Program-made: the position numbers and the translations under genes
Shown here: positions 20,158 to 31,912 of the stretch, piece after piece
Numbering within the stretch: position 1 is the stretch's first letter
Layout of the letters: every line of letters starts with the position of its first letter
Source: Spizellomyces punctatus DAOM BR117
Lineage: Eukaryota
Direction: 5' to 3' (one strand)
Length of the DNA: 64,000 nt
NCBI GenBank assembly: GCA_000182565.2
Contig: KQ257456.1
The notes under the pieces: generated by a model
Seen by the model: the letters and a program-made list of their open reading frames with translations, nothing else
Database searches by the model: none
What the model was told of the DNA's origin: nothing

Positions 20158-22019
20158 ATGTCACTTCCCACCCCCGCTCCCATAAACATTCCGTTATCCG
20201 CCCGTTTTCGGTTTCGCGATGATATCCCCGTGTCCGCATGTTCGAGTCCACGTTCTATCGCAGTATTCTCTGGCGGGTCGGCTATGAATACCTTTGTCAC
20301 GCTGCTACAATCCTTTACAGATGATACTGCCTACATTATGCCCGTGTCCGATGATGGTGGGGGATTAGACCGTGATGTCACATTTTGTTGGACCAGCACT
20401 AACTCTTTGTGCTAGGCGGATCGACGTCGGAAATCATCAAAGTCTTGGGTGGACCTGGAATAGGAGACTTGCGATCTAGAGTGGTTCGATTGGCGGAAAC
20501 CGGGTCGGCAGAGGTGTGAGTTCAATTTTAAGAGCTTCGCAGTGTCCTGGTGTCATACCGATTGATTTTTTGGGCGATAAAGTCAAGAGCAGTTCACGAT
20601 CTCTTGAGCTACCGATTACCATTTGATACCTTGAATGCGAATAGTCCCACTTCCAATCCGTCTATCCCTACGGCGAAAGCTGTCTGGTTTGAGATTCTTG
20701 AGGGGCGGCACGTACTATGGCAAGGAATATCCGATCCTTATCGAGAGACAATCCGAGCCTTCCTTGCGCATTTTCAACATGAACTTGTAAAGTCTGCAAC
20801 GCGACGACCGCCATTCGAGTATCAGGGCGGTTCAATTGGGAATTTCTTCTTGACGGGATCGAGACTCTTTTTCGACAATCTCGATGCCGCAGTATTTCAG
20901 TTTGCGCGAATAATGCGTGTACCACCGAGAACAGAGGTAGTACCGGTGCTTGCAACCGCACGGGGGGTTGTCACAATTGCGGCTGCCCTTCGAAATGGAG
21001 AGGTCATTGTGGGTCAGTGCGACATATCCCATCCGGGGCAAATGGTACCAGAAGGCTCCCGCTCACGAACAGGGTCACTCGGCTCTTCGGACGGAAAAGG
21101 GTCGGCCACTCTCTCTACACCACCAACAGACGTCCCACGAAGTCAACCAGAGCGACTTATCCCTTTTCAATCCCTAAGTCGACATCCTAGCCAGAATCTT
21201 ATTTTTTCAAAGACCGCCTGTCCCTCTCTACCCTCAGCAATACGTCGAATTTACTACGTCAACCGTGAGCGGCAGGAGATATTTCCTGATTTGAATCCCC
21301 TTGTGGTAGCAAATCTGGCCCGGAAGCGGACTATCATATATGGTTGCGGATCTCTGTACACGTCAATACTTCCTTGCTTGGTTGTACCCGGAGTAGGGCG
21401 GCTTCTAGCAGACCCGCTATCTAGGAGCTCGGTGGACCGCTTCAGCATTCGAACCTCGATACCTTCCCCCTTCCCGTCCCGAAGTCATTTGTCGAGGGTA
21501 AAATTGTTACTTCTCAACGGAACTCATGATCGGGAATCCAAAGATTATACCGCGATGGATTTTGTGCTGGGCATAACAGATGCTTTAAACTACTCATGTC
21601 TAGCAGAGGAACGAGCGCGACGTGCTGTGGGACGGCAGCCATCCTCTCGAAGTATAATCCAAGAAATGGAAGGTTCACACCCATATGGCGGGAATAGCAA
21701 TGGCAAACCGATTAGTCCGTCATGGTGGACAGGAAATACGGCGGCAAGCAGCGACGGGGACTCGGGGATATCTGCGGGAAAGATAGTGGAAATGCACAGC
21801 GATTCGGGTCGCAGTTATCTTGCAAGTCCTCATCCACCAGGTGCGTACATTACCCATCTACTGTATCCGGAGGATGGAGAAGTCAAGGTGGAGGTGGAGA
21901 AGATAGAGTCTTTTGGAATACGATGTATCAGAGTGCGCTCTACAGGCGTGGAGGGATCTCAGAAAGGGCACTATGGGATTGATGAGCTGAAGGAGGTGTT
22001 GGACCATTTGATAATGTAA
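20158..22019 (+). CDS. UPF0052 / CofD-like (YvcK-related, YNL011C-like) protein
   Basis: IAVFSGGSA, PVSDDGG/GSTSEI, GPGIGDLRSR, SIGNFFLTG, IIYGCGSLYTSILP and LLLNGTHDRES. Confidence 0.85.
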
Positions 22020-22163: not shown

Positions 22164-23385
22164 ATGACTGTAACAATGAACGAGGAGCCAGCAAATGGGC
22201 AGCAATGGGGACTCACATTTGAAGGAGTGAAGACAGTGCGTGTGCGTCAAGTACCCATCCCGACCATTCAGGAGCCCACCGACTGCATTGTGAGTTTCCG
22301 AATTTACTAATGTCGTTCAATGTGCACGCTGTAAACTTTCATGCATTTTCTGTAGGTCAGGACGTCCCTTGTTGGCGTTTGCGGTAAGAATCATATTGTA
22401 TTGCGACGCTGTTCCCATATTACATACTTATAGCACGTCGCAACCAGGCTCTGATTTGCATGCCTACCATGGTCGTGAAGCAGGCTGTGACCACGGCACA
22501 GTCATGGGGCACGAATTGGTTGGGATCGTCGATGCAGTGGGAGCATCAGTAACGTCGCTAAAAGTTGGAGATCGCGTCATGTGTCCTTTCACTACGAACT
22601 GCGGCTCATGCTTTTACTGCAAACGGGGGTTGACGGCACGTTGCACTACCGGACAGCTGTTTGGATGGAAATCTGGCGGAAAGGGTTTGGACGGGGGCCA
22701 AGCACAGTATGTTAGAGTACCTTTGGCAGATGGTACGCTATCGCGCATTCCTGAAGGTGTGACAGATGAGGAAGCTTTGTTGCTGGGTGATATCTTTTCC
22801 ACTGGATTCTTTTGTGCCGACAATGGCGGCATCGAAGCTGACCAAGATCAAGTTGTTGCGGTTATTGGATGTGGGCCGGTGGGATTGATGGCCATTTTAG
22901 GTGCCCGAGAATTAGGGGCAAAACGTGTTATTGCGATCGATATGGTCACTGATCGCTTAGATCTTGCCAAAGAATATGGCGCTGAGCCGGTTCATTTGAA
23001 AGAACAGGATCCCCTTGCTGCCGTGCATGCAGCAACGGAAGGACGCGGAGCTGACGTTGTACTGGAAGTTGTAGGGTCAGAAAGTGCAATGGAATTGGCA
23101 TACAAACTTTTGCGTCCTGGTGGAACCTTGTCATGCGTTGGAGTTCACAATGAGGATAAATTAGCCTTTAGCCCGAACGATGCTTACGACAAAAACATTA
23201 CATTTCGGATTGGAAGGTGTCCAGCTAGACATTTTATGGAGAAACTGGTCCCCGTTGTGGTGAGCAAAAAGTATGATCTGACACGCATCATCACCCATCG
23301 CATGGACTTGAAAGAGGCGGTCGAGGCGTACGATATGTTTGATAGAAAGTTGGATGGCTGCATCAAGATTGTGCTCAGAACGTAG
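22164..23385 (+). CDS. Zinc-dependent MDR alcohol/formaldehyde dehydrogenase-like protein
   Basis: GVCG/SDLH, GHE, structural zinc motif CGSCFYCKRGLTARC, GGQAQYVRVP and Rossmann GCGPVG. Two short 5' introns. Confidence 0.92.
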
Positions 23386-28329: not shown

Positions 28330-28403
28330 GGTCTCGTGGTGTAGTTGGTTATCACATCAGTCTAACACACTGAAGGTCTCCAGTTCGAACCTGGACGAGA
28401 CCA
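28330..28403 (+). tRNA. tRNA-Val (anticodon AAC)
   Basis: Acceptor stem GGTCTCG/CGAGACC plus discriminator A, D-arm TGGTGTAGTTGGTTATCAC, anticodon arm TCAGT-CTAACAC-ACTGA and T-arm TCCAG-TTCGAAC-CTGGA. No intron. Confidence 0.96.
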
Positions 28404-28778: not shown

Positions 28779-30738
28779 ATGTCAAATCCTGTCCCCGAAT
28801 TCACGACCACCCCTCTCAACTCCATTCGGTATTCCCAATCAAATATATCAGCATGTTTCTCTGCACGAGGGGGACGTAAAGAGACGGCTGTCCTCAATAA
28901 GAAATTGCTGACAGACTTGCCGCCTATGGTTGTTGTGCCCTTGGAATCAAATAGCGTAACTACAGCGGATAATCGACGACGCCGTCACTATGAACATCAT
29001 AATCAAACCTCGTGCGATGTTTTGAAAGTGCCGCACGGTCATTCGATTCAAAAGTATCTGGTGGACAAGATTTATCAGCTTCCACTGCTGAAAGACAAGA
29101 AAGCCGCATCCAAAATTTCGGGATTTTACTGTATGCACATCGGATATTGGAGTAAAGAGAACAAAGATTTAGTGCTGCTCACCTGGCGTATCCGTACTCT
29201 AGGACAATTTGTAGAAGCACGCTGTCTAGCTCAGGAGGATGATTTTCCAATTTATGGCAGAATAGCACCGGTCCCCACTGTAGGGTCCCATTCCCGAAAG
29301 GAGTTGAATATCCGCTTGAATGACAGAGAACCTCCAGACTTTTCCCAAGCCAGCAGCGAAATCTTTCGGAGCTCACGCATATATGTTGCCACAAATACGG
29401 ACGCAACTCCAAAAGCAAGTCTTTTCACCCACGAGGTGCGATCAGTTGATAGTATTCGCGACTGGTTAGCAGCTCTTCGTTCTCCGGAAATCCGTGGATG
29501 TTACACAATTATCACCGGAGTAATTCTCGACCAGCGACGACAACCGAGTACTTCCCCGCATGAGTCGGAAGAAGATTCGGACATAGATTTAGGACAGCAA
29601 GAGTTTCCACCTCTTGGTCAAACAGAAGTGAAATCTGCAAGTTCCCAAGTCAGCAAATCGAAAAACCGCAGGTCACGACCCGAAGACGCCGATATCGATA
29701 ATCTGATTGCAGAGTCAATTGCAGAAAGTATTTTAGATGACCATGCTGATGAGGACCTTGATGAGGTGTACAGATGGACTGTAGGAGTGGAGGGCCATAA
29801 TGCTGGACATTATACAGTGACTTCAAATGAGGACCTCGAGCAAATTCCTGTTGGCGGAAGTTTTGATGCCACCAGAAGAAACATGCTCCTATGGAATGAA
29901 GATTGGCTTCGCTTTTTCTCGGCTGACGATGATTCTGGATCCTCTGAGGTATTATCCAGTTTATTTGAATGATTCTTAATTAAATTCACCTCGACATATC
30001 TAGGCGGATGATGATACAAGTCAAAAGATTGCTGACTTGAGCGTGAGCTCGAAAACGCAACAAAGCACGATCGCCCGGTATTCTGAAACCTCTGAGGTAT
30101 TATCTAGTTTATTTAAACGATTCTTAAATAAATTCACCTCGACATAACTAGGAGGATGATGATATAAGTCAAAAGTTTTCTGACTTGAGCGTGAGCTCGA
30201 AAACGCAACAAAGCACGATCGCCCGGTATTTTGTCAACTTCTACGTACAGCAGTCTGGCGTGACATTGGGAGCGATTGCTCTGGCTTGGATGAGCAAGGT
30301 CGGTGGGCCCGTTAAGTGTGCGATAATGAAGAATCTACCTGGATCGAGTAAGTATTAGTATAGAGATACATGACAGCTTCAAGCTGATTTTTGATTCAAT
30401 GTTTTGCAGCAATTGTCACCTTCGTGATGGAGGGTCAAGAACCCAAGGTCCTCCCATCTTTTGACGTGAAAAATAACGGAGAAACAGTTCACGTTCATAT
30501 TGGATGTGTTGGTTTTGACACTAGCGCAATCGATCAAGCGAGAGTATGCGGAGATGATGATGAGATCCCAACCACTTTCCAGTGGCAGGATTTTGATAAT
30601 CCATCTGCGACAGTCGATGCACCCTTTACGTTAAGAATCCCTGCTGAAAGAATCTCGACGATCTCGACGATTGAGACCTCGATGCCTTTCCTTAGAGACA
30701 AAAAGCGGCATTCCTTGTCAAAATCCAGTCAAGCGTGA
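28779..30738 (+). CDS. Uncharacterised ~595-aa protein with putative N-terminal ParB/sulfiredoxin-fold domain (4 exons)
   Basis: Exons 28779-29948, 30004-30096, 30152-30347 and 30410-30738 are joined by GT-AG introns with consistent phases (0,0,1), giving one ORF. N-terminal motifs are IRYSQSNIS, LPPMVVV and TADNRR. Confidence 0.7.
29941..30230 (+). repeat. Tandem direct repeat, period 148 bp (55-nt intron + 93-nt exon)
   Basis: Copies 29941-30082 and 30089-30230 align without gaps, with nine substitutions by my count; the last ~50 nt are identical. Confidence 0.95.
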
Positions 30739-31912
30739 GGGCTCATTGTGTTGGAGACATAGTTAGATCAGGAAGGGATAGTTTGGTTTTTGGTTAGTCT
30801 ATTTTTCATAGACTATGTAATTAACACAAAGGATTTGTTCCTAGACTAATATAACCTTTCTCTACTACCAATCCTAATTACATCTATACTGAACATTTGG
30901 ATAATGTTTTAAGAAAGCTCTTTCATGACGGATTCTCTATAAAAATCCTTGTACTTTGCGACAGCCGATCGGTACACAAGCTTGTCTCAAGGCCTTATAT
31001 AATTCGGCTTCGTTCCAGCACGCTATTCTGCAGTATTCTGTACATGCCATTGTTCTTCTGTACTGGTTCTCAAGTGTGTTTTGACTTATATAATACAACT
31101 TCAATCGGATCGAAAAACATCATCCATGTAAACTCATTTCAACAACACAATATCTCTGATATAATGTGCAAGAGGTGCATGTCGGTGCAAGCGACGCTTC
31201 AGTCAAATAAGTTGAGTGTTCATCGCTAATAACCTTCCAAGTAAATTGTGATCGTCTGCAATAATTGGAGATGGAACTATCATTTCTTTTTTGCTGCAAA
31301 CGTCAAGTCAAAAACGGTCCGATCGCATGATGGATGCTCTGTTGCGCCTTTCCGCCTTTCATCGTTGCAATCTAATTCCTTTTGCGAGGGGAATCTCTCG
31401 ATGGGTACAGACAAAGTAGTGTCAATGCACGTGTGAGCATGCGCTGTGTATGCATTTCCAAAATGGACTATTGAAGCGTGGAAAAACAAGCCTTGTTTGC
31501 CATGAATTTGGTCTCCTGCTGTGGGCTATGCCCCAACGCTGCAACGCAGTGTGCAAAGCAAGGAAATCTGGCCGGTAAATAAAGCGTGTGGATGACGTGA
31601 TTAGGAACAAGATTCTATTTTTGTCCGAATTTCCGTCCGAATCTCCTGCTTTCTTCTTCTTTGGGTTTTTTTTTGCCTCTCCTCGCATGAGCGTCCAATT
31701 TTCTTTTTCACCCCCTTTTTTCTCGTGCTTTGTCGCCTTTCGTCATTGGAGGGGGACTCAGCGTGGGAGACGGTCGTCTGGGCGCGGGGTATAAAAACGT
31801 CAACGTCGCCATCCTCCTCTTGAGTTGAACTTGACATTCCAAAAGGACTTGTCAAAAGCTCGCGCAACCATCATACATACTAGAGACAGCAATAATTAGA
31901 GTACAGTAAAAC

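What the first reader, a model, noticed from the sequence alone, without database searches (positions are those of the whole stretch)
28779..29030. Unrecognised gene beside tRNA-Val with a ParB/Srx-like catalytic N-terminus
Seen: the N-terminus reads LNSIRYSQSNISACF...LPPMVVVPLESNSVTTADNRR. Knowledge: the order IR(F/Y)(S/T)Q, then P-hydrophobic strand, then (T/S)xDN(R/T)R is characteristic of standalone ParB/sulfiredoxin-fold domains, including Tox-ParB of polymorphic toxins. Inference: this is a ~595-aa fungal protein with a nucleotide-handling ParB-like head, an acidic linker and a C-terminal region I do not recognise. It is unlike the housekeeping neighbours and may be a conflict/defence effector, possibly horizontally acquired.
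Basis: partly seen in the sequence, partly recalled or inferred. Interest (0 to 1): 0.7.

Follow-up and report, generated by a model that had tools for sequence, protein, structure and literature searches.

The report
Chytrid protein with ParB-like toxin-type domain
A soil fungus carries a real, expressed gene whose front end is a distant version of a nucleotide-binding domain that bacteria use as a weapon against each other, here fused to extra domains and apparently kept inside the cell, with its target still unknown.

Summary
The ATG at 28779 starts a single-copy, four-exon, 595-aa gene (SPPG_04807, Spizellomyces punctatus, as named by the database). It is polyadenylated at 30871 in one RNA run.

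Residues 7-84 carry IRYSQ..P..TADNRR. The motif is kept in all 4 homologues that have a head. An AlphaFold model from family sequences alone returns only ParB/sulfiredoxin structures at the top (best Z 7.7, next unrelated 3.2). Profile links lead to bacterial RHS/MafB-type warheads with SUKH immunity, that is Tox-ParBL1, whose presence in eukaryotes including fungi was reported in 2012. The link to the Neisseria type form is transitive only.

New here is a small, patchy subfamily missed by Pfam. It has an inserted hairpin, an RC-x2-Q-x3-FP-x2-G tail with a conserved Cys, and a second conserved domain inside the supposed acidic linker. All of this lies in one exon.

It is not a polymorphic toxin system: no secretion signal, delivery domain or recognisable immunity gene. 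The best reading is a domesticated cytosolic NTP-hydrolysing or phosphotransfer enzyme; a defence role is untested. No bacterial donor is resolved and the transfer is not recent.

The parts
28330..28403 (+). tRNA-Val(AAC), upstream neighbour; no evidence of a functional link
   Evidence: tRNA genes are dispersed in this genome, at least 63 scored
28779..29948 (+). Exon 1 (residues 1-390): holds the entire core shared with homologues
28797..29030 (+). ParB/Srx-fold core, Tox-ParBL1 type (residues 7-84)
28824..28838 (+). IRYSQ motif with the family's N-terminal Ser (S19)
   Evidence: S in 15 of 16 rows of A7
28968..28979 (+). DNRR phosphate-binding motif; R67 inferred equivalent of the GxxR arginine
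   Evidence: N65-R66-R67 in 15 of 16 rows; equivalence by inference from PMC3482391 section 25 and the ToxB preprint section 7
29127..29192 (+). Inserted beta-hairpin (residues 117-138), absent from the short bacterial warheads
29196..29258 (+). Tail helix and motif T140..R148-C149..Q152..F156-P157..G160
   Evidence: equivalence to the bacterial tail is weak on its own
29289..29528 (+). Family-specific extension (residues 171-250), poorly modelled
   Evidence: conserved in P0003-P0006; pLDDT mostly under 60
29685..29933 (+). Second conserved, acidic domain (residues 303-385; YxWTxG..V...PxGxxFxAT..M..N..W); no known fold found
   Evidence: 35-46 bits to P0003, P0004, P0006; 7.8 to P0005; none to P0009; best Z 2.9
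29932..30227 (+). 148-bp tandem duplication (93% identical) that copies a 55-nt intron plus 93 coding bases, adding 31 residues in frame
   Evidence: junction spanned by one Logan contig (X4 record 17)
30004..30096 (+). Exon 2 (residues 391-421)
   Evidence: no junction reads
30152..30347 (+). Exon 3
30410..30738 (+). Exon 4 with stop; with exon 3 it encodes a C-terminal region (residues ~443-595) weakly shared only with the Rhizophlyctis homologue
   Evidence: 10.9 bits vs 2.6 best of 200 shuffles
30871..30871 (+). Poly(A) site
   Evidence: 22 reads with A tails in run X8

Best explanation
A cytosolic enzyme built on a Tox-ParBL1-type ParB/sulfiredoxin domain. It descends from the warhead family of bacterial polymorphic toxins and has long been resident in chytrids. 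The core binds Mg-NTP (ATP most likely) through S19 and D64-N65-R66-R67, with R67 in the place of the GxxR arginine. It hydrolyses the NTP or transfers the terminal phosphate to a macromolecular target. The tail helix (R148, C149, Q152) completes the pocket. The hairpin, the extension and the second acidic domain were added in this subfamily and choose the target or hold the enzyme off, which allows steady expression without an immunity gene. Shown: gene, expression of the 3' end, motif conservation, fold, kinship with bacterial warheads. Inferred: NTP binding, catalysis, cytosolic location, regulation by the added domains, lateral origin.
For: Motif kept in 4 of 4 head-bearing homologues at 27-48% identity. 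Family-only AlphaFold model: the top 8 rows of 48,161 chains are ParB/Srx-fold proteins (Srx 6ky4 Z 7.7, rmsd 2.7, 82 aligned; next unrelated Z 3.2); same picture. The head profile found 7 new proteins, 7 of 7 with [IV]RYSQ..[DN]NRR; hhalign to four of them 97.5%, E 5.8e-12. Bacterial relatives carry the domain C-terminally, one on RHS repeats, one before a SUKH-like gene; via L004, a MafB-SUKH locus. Non-clamp ParB-fold proteins (SerK, SbnI, Srx, ToxB) use ATP. No hydrophobic signal or TM segment. Poly(A) reads at a depth like the Snf7-family neighbour.
Against: No Pfam, NCBIfam, PHROG, PADLOC or PDB sequence match. No structural hit reaches Z 8 or Foldseek-PDB E 0.001, and the tool warns that Z 7-8 is common. 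The family HMM does not score the Neisseria MafB domain above shuffles (2.3 bits vs 5.9). A bacterial tail-only HMM does not score P0002 above shuffles (82 of 500 as high). The query departs from SLDNRRL (TADNRRR). One homologue (P0006) lacks the head as called. No ParBL1 domain has a measured activity in the papers found, and sequence does not predict nucleotide choice. The tree gives no donor.
Confidence: 0.55

Rival explanations
1. Cell-autonomous defence effector: a latent toxin that, when the second domain senses an invader (virus or endoparasite), consumes NTP or attacks a conserved process and kills or arrests the infected cell.
For: Kinship with toxin warheads. A ParB-fold toxin, ToxB, is toxic in bacterial and plant cells in an ATP-dependent way. 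Very patchy, fast-diverging family. Multi-domain layout.
Against: Single copy, ordinary neighbours, no repeat sensor or NLR-type domain recognised, no PADLOC match. Nothing here tests toxicity.
Confidence: 0.2
2. Catalytically decayed ParB-like domain that now serves as a binding module or scaffold.
For: Drift from SLDNRRL to TADNRRR. P0006 keeps the downstream domains without the head. The same genome holds a second ParBL1-like gene with DNQQ in place of DNRR.
Against: S19, N65, R66 and R67 are kept in all head-bearing members, among only 8 invariant columns of 100.
Confidence: 0.12
3. Sulfiredoxin-like thiol chemistry with a relocated cysteine: ATP-driven phosphorylation of an oxidised sulfur, resolved by C149 on the tail helix.
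For: Srx is the best or joint-best structural match and the alignment reaches residue 151. C149 is present in 8 of 9 extended-family rows, missing only in headless P0006, against 1 of 7 bacterial rows. PF02195 finds no match in this genome.
Against: No Cys in the phosphate-binding motif, where Srx has it (recalled). The position of C149 relative to the pocket could not be inspected. The genome search is weak for intron-split genes.
Confidence: 0.07
4. Exported antibacterial or anti-competitor toxin, or a nuclease, as proposed for Tox-ParB domains in 2012.
For: PMC3482391 section 25 argues that some ParB toxins may be nucleases. Chytrids take up bacterial genes (PMC11291939 passages).
Against: No signal peptide by hydropathy; domain is N-terminal with no delivery region; ToxB caused no detectable DNA damage.
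Confidence: 0.06

Closest known systems
Tox-ParBL1 (Zhang et al. 2012, PMC3482391)
   Same: N-terminal Ser, [NT][RT][RT] motif, predicted ParB fold, already reported in eukaryotes including fungi; relatives found here sit on RHS and MafB with SUKH immunity, as described there.
   Different: Domain is N-terminal, about 50 residues longer through an inserted hairpin, has a conserved Cys in the tail and is followed by an extension and a second conserved domain; no delivery domain or immunity gene. Chytrids are not in that paper's table; its Additional File 1 was not readable.
ToxB, CdiA ParB-fold ATPase toxin (bioRxiv 10.64898/2026.05.05.722872)
   Same: Stand-alone ParB fold without HTH or clamp; a phosphate-binding motif with Asn and terminal Arg (G-N-H-R against D-N-R-R, equivalence inferred).
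   Different: ToxB keeps the Gly of GxxR, is a C-terminal CDI warhead and has an immunity protein; no sequence comparison with ToxB was made.
Sulfiredoxin (6ky4, 1yzs), SerK, SbnI
   Same: Best structural matches (Z 5-7.7); ATP-using ParB folds without DNA-binding domains.
   Different: 5-12% identity; no Cys in the motif (Srx motif recalled); no PF02195 match.
Canonical ParB/Spo0J/Noc CTPase clamps
   Same: Core fold (Foldseek top rows, E 0.003-0.03).
   Different: No GxxR, no PF02195 match, no recognised HTH or dimerisation domain, no ParA partner.

Membership tests
Tox-ParBL1 domain | Conserved N-terminal serine | tested here: met
   S19; 15 of 16 rows; definition
Tox-ParBL1 domain | [NT][RT][RT] motif in place of DGHHR | tested here: met
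   N65-R66-R67; 15 of 16 rows
Tox-ParBL1 domain | ParB fold | tested here: met
   top 8 rows are ParB/Srx-fold; Z at most 7.7; searches agree
Tox-ParBL1 domain | Homology to the Neisseria type protein (NGK_2271) | tested here: inconclusive
   NGK_2271 itself not available. A N. gonorrhoeae MafB C-terminal domain with DNTR matches L004 (E 6e-10, 85% cover) but not the family HMM directly; family to L004-type HMM 16.6-19.7 bits
Polymorphic toxin system | C-terminal warhead on a trafficking/delivery protein | tested here: not met
   domain is residues 7-165; no RHS, FilH, MafB, WXG or signal segment
Polymorphic toxin system | Adjacent immunity gene | tested here: not met
   flanks are tRNA-Val, a Snf7-family gene and a 163-aa Pro/Thr-rich gene with no Pfam match
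ParB/Srx superfamily enzymes | Metal-dependent NTP binding and hydrolysis or phosphotransfer | not testable with these tools
   needs biochemistry
Canonical ParB CTPase | GxxR P-motif and PF02195 match | tested here: not met
   DNRR; no PF02195 hit at E<=10 or in the genome
Canonical ParB CTPase | HTH and C-terminal dimerisation domain | tested here: inconclusive
   no family match, but residues 170-250 and 390-595 are poorly modelled
Sulfiredoxin | Catalytic Cys within the phosphate-binding motif (recalled) | tested here: not met
   sequence reads TADNRR
ToxB | GxxR motif (G105, R108) and cdiBAI context | tested here: not met
   Asp in place of Gly, no CDI context; definition

The most novel reading that the evidence does not exclude
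An interbacterial toxin warhead was captured as one intronless module and turned into a self-inhibited intracellular immune or suicide effector of zoosporic fungi and some protists. The acidic second domain would act as built-in immunity or sensor, and the acquired Cys149 would give the ParB fold a covalent chemistry not yet described. It would be a ParB-fold counterpart of TIR or gasdermin-type effectors in eukaryotic microbes.
Probability: 0.15. Interest if true: 0.78.

Novelty: new variant of a known kind. Interest (0 to 1): 0.42.

Why it matters
Recent surveys of the ParB fold rest on PF02195 and describe sulfiredoxin as the main eukaryotic member. This gene and its relatives are invisible to that model. 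They define a distinct eukaryote-associated branch of Tox-ParBL1, a family proposed in 2012 for which the literature searches here found no biochemical study. A single-copy, expressed member with the catalytic module in one exon is a practical handle for asking which nucleotide ParBL1 domains use and what a toxin-type domain does once kept inside a eukaryotic cell. The general fact, ParBL1 domains in fungi, is not new.

Tried and rejected
Family libraries gave nothing credible: Pfam, NCBIfam, PHROGs, PADLOC, PDB sequences. ESM Atlas gave no usable feature hit, and its own model is too poor (pLDDT 0.30) to use.

P0008, 1 of the 7 hits, was dropped as a TPR protein.

Genomic context of the unnamed homologues could not be obtained. 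Metagenome scans and viral scans (29, 30, 33, 67, 105) confirmed no relative; phage tblastn was empty. A giant-virus or phage origin therefore has no support, though these scans are insensitive.

Complex prediction of residues 1-250 with 298-390 returned no answer (score 0.00, alignments not used).

The second domain and the C-terminal region found no fold above Z 3.2, but they were not folded alone, so this is untested rather than negative.

The bacterial tail-only HMM was significant for P0003 (0 of 500 shuffles), marginal for P0017 (4 of 500), and not for P0002, P0004, P0005, P0009 or P0011. The motif regex (0 of 100,000 shuffles) was written after seeing the motif and is given little weight.

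A recalled likeness of the tail to ParB Box III (ENLQRED) and of domain 2 to the RNase H1 hybrid-binding domain was not supported by any search. tRNA adjacency as an insertion signal was not supported: no flanking repeats and tRNAs are dispersed. Run X1 (small share, root metatranscriptome) holds one 260-base contig on the head, which may be DNA. The gene is not listed in the supplements of a fungal HGT survey.

Full report
1. The gene. A model with four exons and three GT-AG introns (55, 55, 62 nt) translates exactly to the 595-aa database protein P0002. The database names it SPPG_04807 of Spizellomyces punctatus, uncharacterised. The 397-aa first frame has one match in the 24.1-Mb genome, itself, and so has the last exon. 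tRNA-Val(AAC) ends 375 bases upstream. The neighbours are a Zn2Cys6 factor, a Snf7-family gene (E 5.6e-5, under the cut-off; DID2/CHMP1 by recall) and a 163-aa Pro/Thr-rich gene without Pfam match.

2. Expression. In one raw RNA run of the same species label (X8, about 6% read, 60-base reads piled at 3' ends), 22 reads carry poly(A) behind 30871 on the + strand. Depth is about 50 at 30553-30739, against 72 for the Snf7-family gene and 121 for the downstream gene. No splice joints were seen. The join of exons 2-4 to exon 1 therefore rests on canonical sites, the annotation, the absence of a 3' peak after exon 1, and a weak C-terminal match to the Rhizophlyctis homologue. Exon 4 has its own in-frame ATG, so a separate short gene is not excluded.

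3. Homologues. phmmer of residues 1-254 over 1.84 billion representatives gave 7 hits at E<=0.001. Six are family members: P0003 (48%), P0004 (37%), P0005 (27%, Rhizophlyctis rosea), P0006 (39%, lacks the head as called), P0007 (42-aa fragment) and P0009 (33% over 150 residues). P0008 is a TPR protein and was dropped. All but P0005 come from unnamed Logan or ENA contigs, and their context could not be fetched. In the four homologues with a head, S19 and the NRR are invariant. Pairwise scores by region against 200 shuffles each show four conserved blocks. The head matches P0003, P0004, P0005 and P0009. The hairpin plus tail (110-170) matches those four and P0006. The extension (171-254) matches P0003-P0006. 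A second domain (300-385) scores 35-46 bits to P0003, P0004 and P0006, 7.8 to P0005, and nothing to P0009. The region after residue 443 matches only P0005, at 10.9 bits against 2.6. All shared blocks lie in exon 1, and four of the five long homologues end soon after them. I infer an intronless module that later gained C-terminal exons in chytrids.

4. Fold. AlphaFold2 on the six-sequence family alignment gave a weak model overall (pLDDT 40) with a better head (blocks of 58-75 at residues 11-20 and 41-90). Against 48,161 chains the top 8 rows were all ParB/Srx-fold proteins: sulfiredoxin 6ky4 (Z 7.7, rmsd 2.7, 82 aligned), PadC 7.1, SerK 6.5, Atu1540 6.4 (fold assignment recalled), KorB 6.2, SbnI 6.1, human Srx 5.7, pNOB8 ParB 4.5. 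The first unrelated row was 3.2. Foldseek agreed but with best E 0.016. A second model of residues 1-254, from an alignment that included seven bacterial domains and so is not independent of them, reached pLDDT 63 and pTM 0.67. It gave the same proteins (best Z 6.6), PDB best E 0.0029 and three viral hits at E<=0.001, two named ParB-like. No single score is strong, and the tool notes that Z 7-8 is common. The weight lies in every top row being from one superfamily.

5. Which ParB family. Zhang et al. 2012 (PMC3482391; passages and section 25 read) separate DGHHR-type Tox-ParB from Tox-ParBL1. [quoted passage not shown] A profile of five family heads found 7 new proteins (E 2e-4 to 0.13; 8000 candidates scored), 7 of 7 with [IV]RYSQ..[DN]NRR. 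Four of them, aligned, match the family profile at 97.5%, E 5.8e-12. A scan with them gave 10 confirmed bacterial loci of 22 pattern matches. The domain lies at or near the C-terminus in all ten. L008 carries RHS repeats, L005 peptidoglycan-binding domains, and L004 is followed by a SUKH-1-like gene (E 5.2e-5, just under the cut-off). An HMM of 12 such domains scores P0002 at 16.6 bits against 4.5 (best other of 439 window frames) and 5.5 (best of 2000 shuffles); a 7-sequence version gives 19.7, 7.8 and 7.9. The L004 domain finds a Neisseria gonorrhoeae locus at E 6e-10 that has MafB, a DNTR-type domain and SUKH-1, as in the 2012 description. Against this, the family HMM scores that Neisseria domain at only 2.3 bits, below shuffles, so the link to the type form is transitive.

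6. What is different. P0011 (unnamed) and P0014/P0017 (Chromulina nebulosa) were found by the head alone, yet share the downstream T..RC..Q...FP..G motif (hhalign 97.5%, 155 columns). In the 16-row alignment this motif lines up with the bacterial tail T[WFY]G.A...RI..Q...P.GS after an inserted hairpin, which two actinobacterial proteins (L007, L009) also seem to have. That equivalence is weak when tested alone: significant for P0003, marginal for P0017, not for P0002. Cys149 is present in 8 of 9 extended-family rows (two of them near-identical), absent only from headless P0006, and in 1 of 7 bacterial rows.

7. Origin. A tree of 20 domains and 140 columns (P0006, P0007, P0014 left out; P0012 and P0015 represented by L003 and L002) groups P0002, P0003, P0004, P0005 and P0009 (UFBoot 86). 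P0011 and P0017 join as weak sister (65), and no bacterial donor is resolved. CDS GC is 0.467 and GC3 0.445, against GC3 0.436-0.557 for five neighbouring exons. With three introns and a homologue in another chytrid genus, any transfer is old. The patchiness (two named chytrids, one chrysophyte) fits lateral spread or heavy loss with fast divergence.

8. How it most likely works. ParB folds that lack the DNA clamp use ATP for enzymatic work (SerK, SbnI, Srx; passages of bioRxiv 10.1101/2025.10.10.680097). The one characterised ParB-fold toxin found here, ToxB, is a slow ATPase whose GxxR arginine is needed for binding and toxicity (bioRxiv 10.64898/2026.05.05.722872; abstract, sections 5, 7, 9, 11). 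By motif register D64-N65-R66-R67 corresponds to G-x-x-R, so R67 is the predicted key residue (inference; residue-level superpositions were not available). The protein has no hydrophobic signal or TM segment, no delivery domain and no recognisable immunity neighbour, and it is expressed steadily. I therefore read it as a cytosolic, regulated NTP-using enzyme (0.55). Rivals are a latent defence effector (0.2), a decayed scaffold (0.12), Cys149 thiol chemistry (0.07) and an exported toxin or nuclease (0.06).

9. Novelty. ParBL1 domains in fungi are known, so the kind is not new. The architecture and subfamily match no library searched. Literature searches found 'ParBL1' and 'Tox-ParB' in this sense only in the 2012 paper, and nothing for ParB with chytrid and horizontal. 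Most subscription papers are outside the library. The 2012 Additional File 1 was not readable and may list chytrid members; bioRxiv supplements were closed. PMC11291939 (passages and supplement search) does not list this protein. Earlier scan notes held nothing by sequence or place, and one unrelated fungal ParB-like fusion by words. Verdict: real, new variant of a known kind, interest 0.42.

Noticed in passing
L013 1396-2166, - strand (G000:C17, about 385.7-386.5 kb): A second ParBL1-like gene in the same genome, closer to the short canonical type (38 bits on the bacterial HMM) but with DNQQ for DNRR and no SQ, so probably inactive.
   Followed up: partly
window 28330-28403 and L013 471-544, 919-993: Both ParBL1-like genes of this genome lie within about 400 bases of a tRNA gene (Val; a pair of Ile). 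tRNA genes are dispersed (at least 63), so this may be chance.
   Followed up: partly
window 29932-30227: A recent 148-bp intragenic tandem duplication produced two near-identical 55-nt introns and 31 extra residues in frame: intron gain by duplication. 11 differences, 5 in the intron and 6 in coding bases.
   Followed up: yes
P0005 residues ~605-636: The Rhizophlyctis homologue ends in a Cys/His knuckle (RC..T..G.PC.R......C..H) that the window's protein lacks; the likeness to DUF5763-type fingers is recalled and not confirmed by Pfam.
   Followed up: no
P0004 and P0009 C-termini: Two otherwise divergent unnamed homologues both end in IPD..GIK.FYC.
   Followed up: no
L007 1276-2777 and L009 1213-2789: Two actinobacterial MAG loci encode stand-alone ParBL1 proteins with an inserted hairpin and an FPL.GS tail like the eukaryote-type family, each overlapped by a 277-aa downstream frame without a clear Pfam match.
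   Followed up: partly
P0013 (JGI contig): An 816-aa protein fuses a canonical ParBL1 head to KH domains, C2H2 fingers and a weak DnaJ-like end, suggesting RNA-linked roles for some ParBL1 proteins.
   Followed up: no
window 20532-22013: Frame with a CofD-like (PF01933) match, E 1.5e-14, beside a zinc alcohol dehydrogenase frame at 22294-23379.
   Followed up: no
L014 (NZ_CP119142.1): A 2.17-Mb record filed as a plasmid looks like a Neisseria chromosome; its first mafB gene lies in two reading frames.
   Followed up: no
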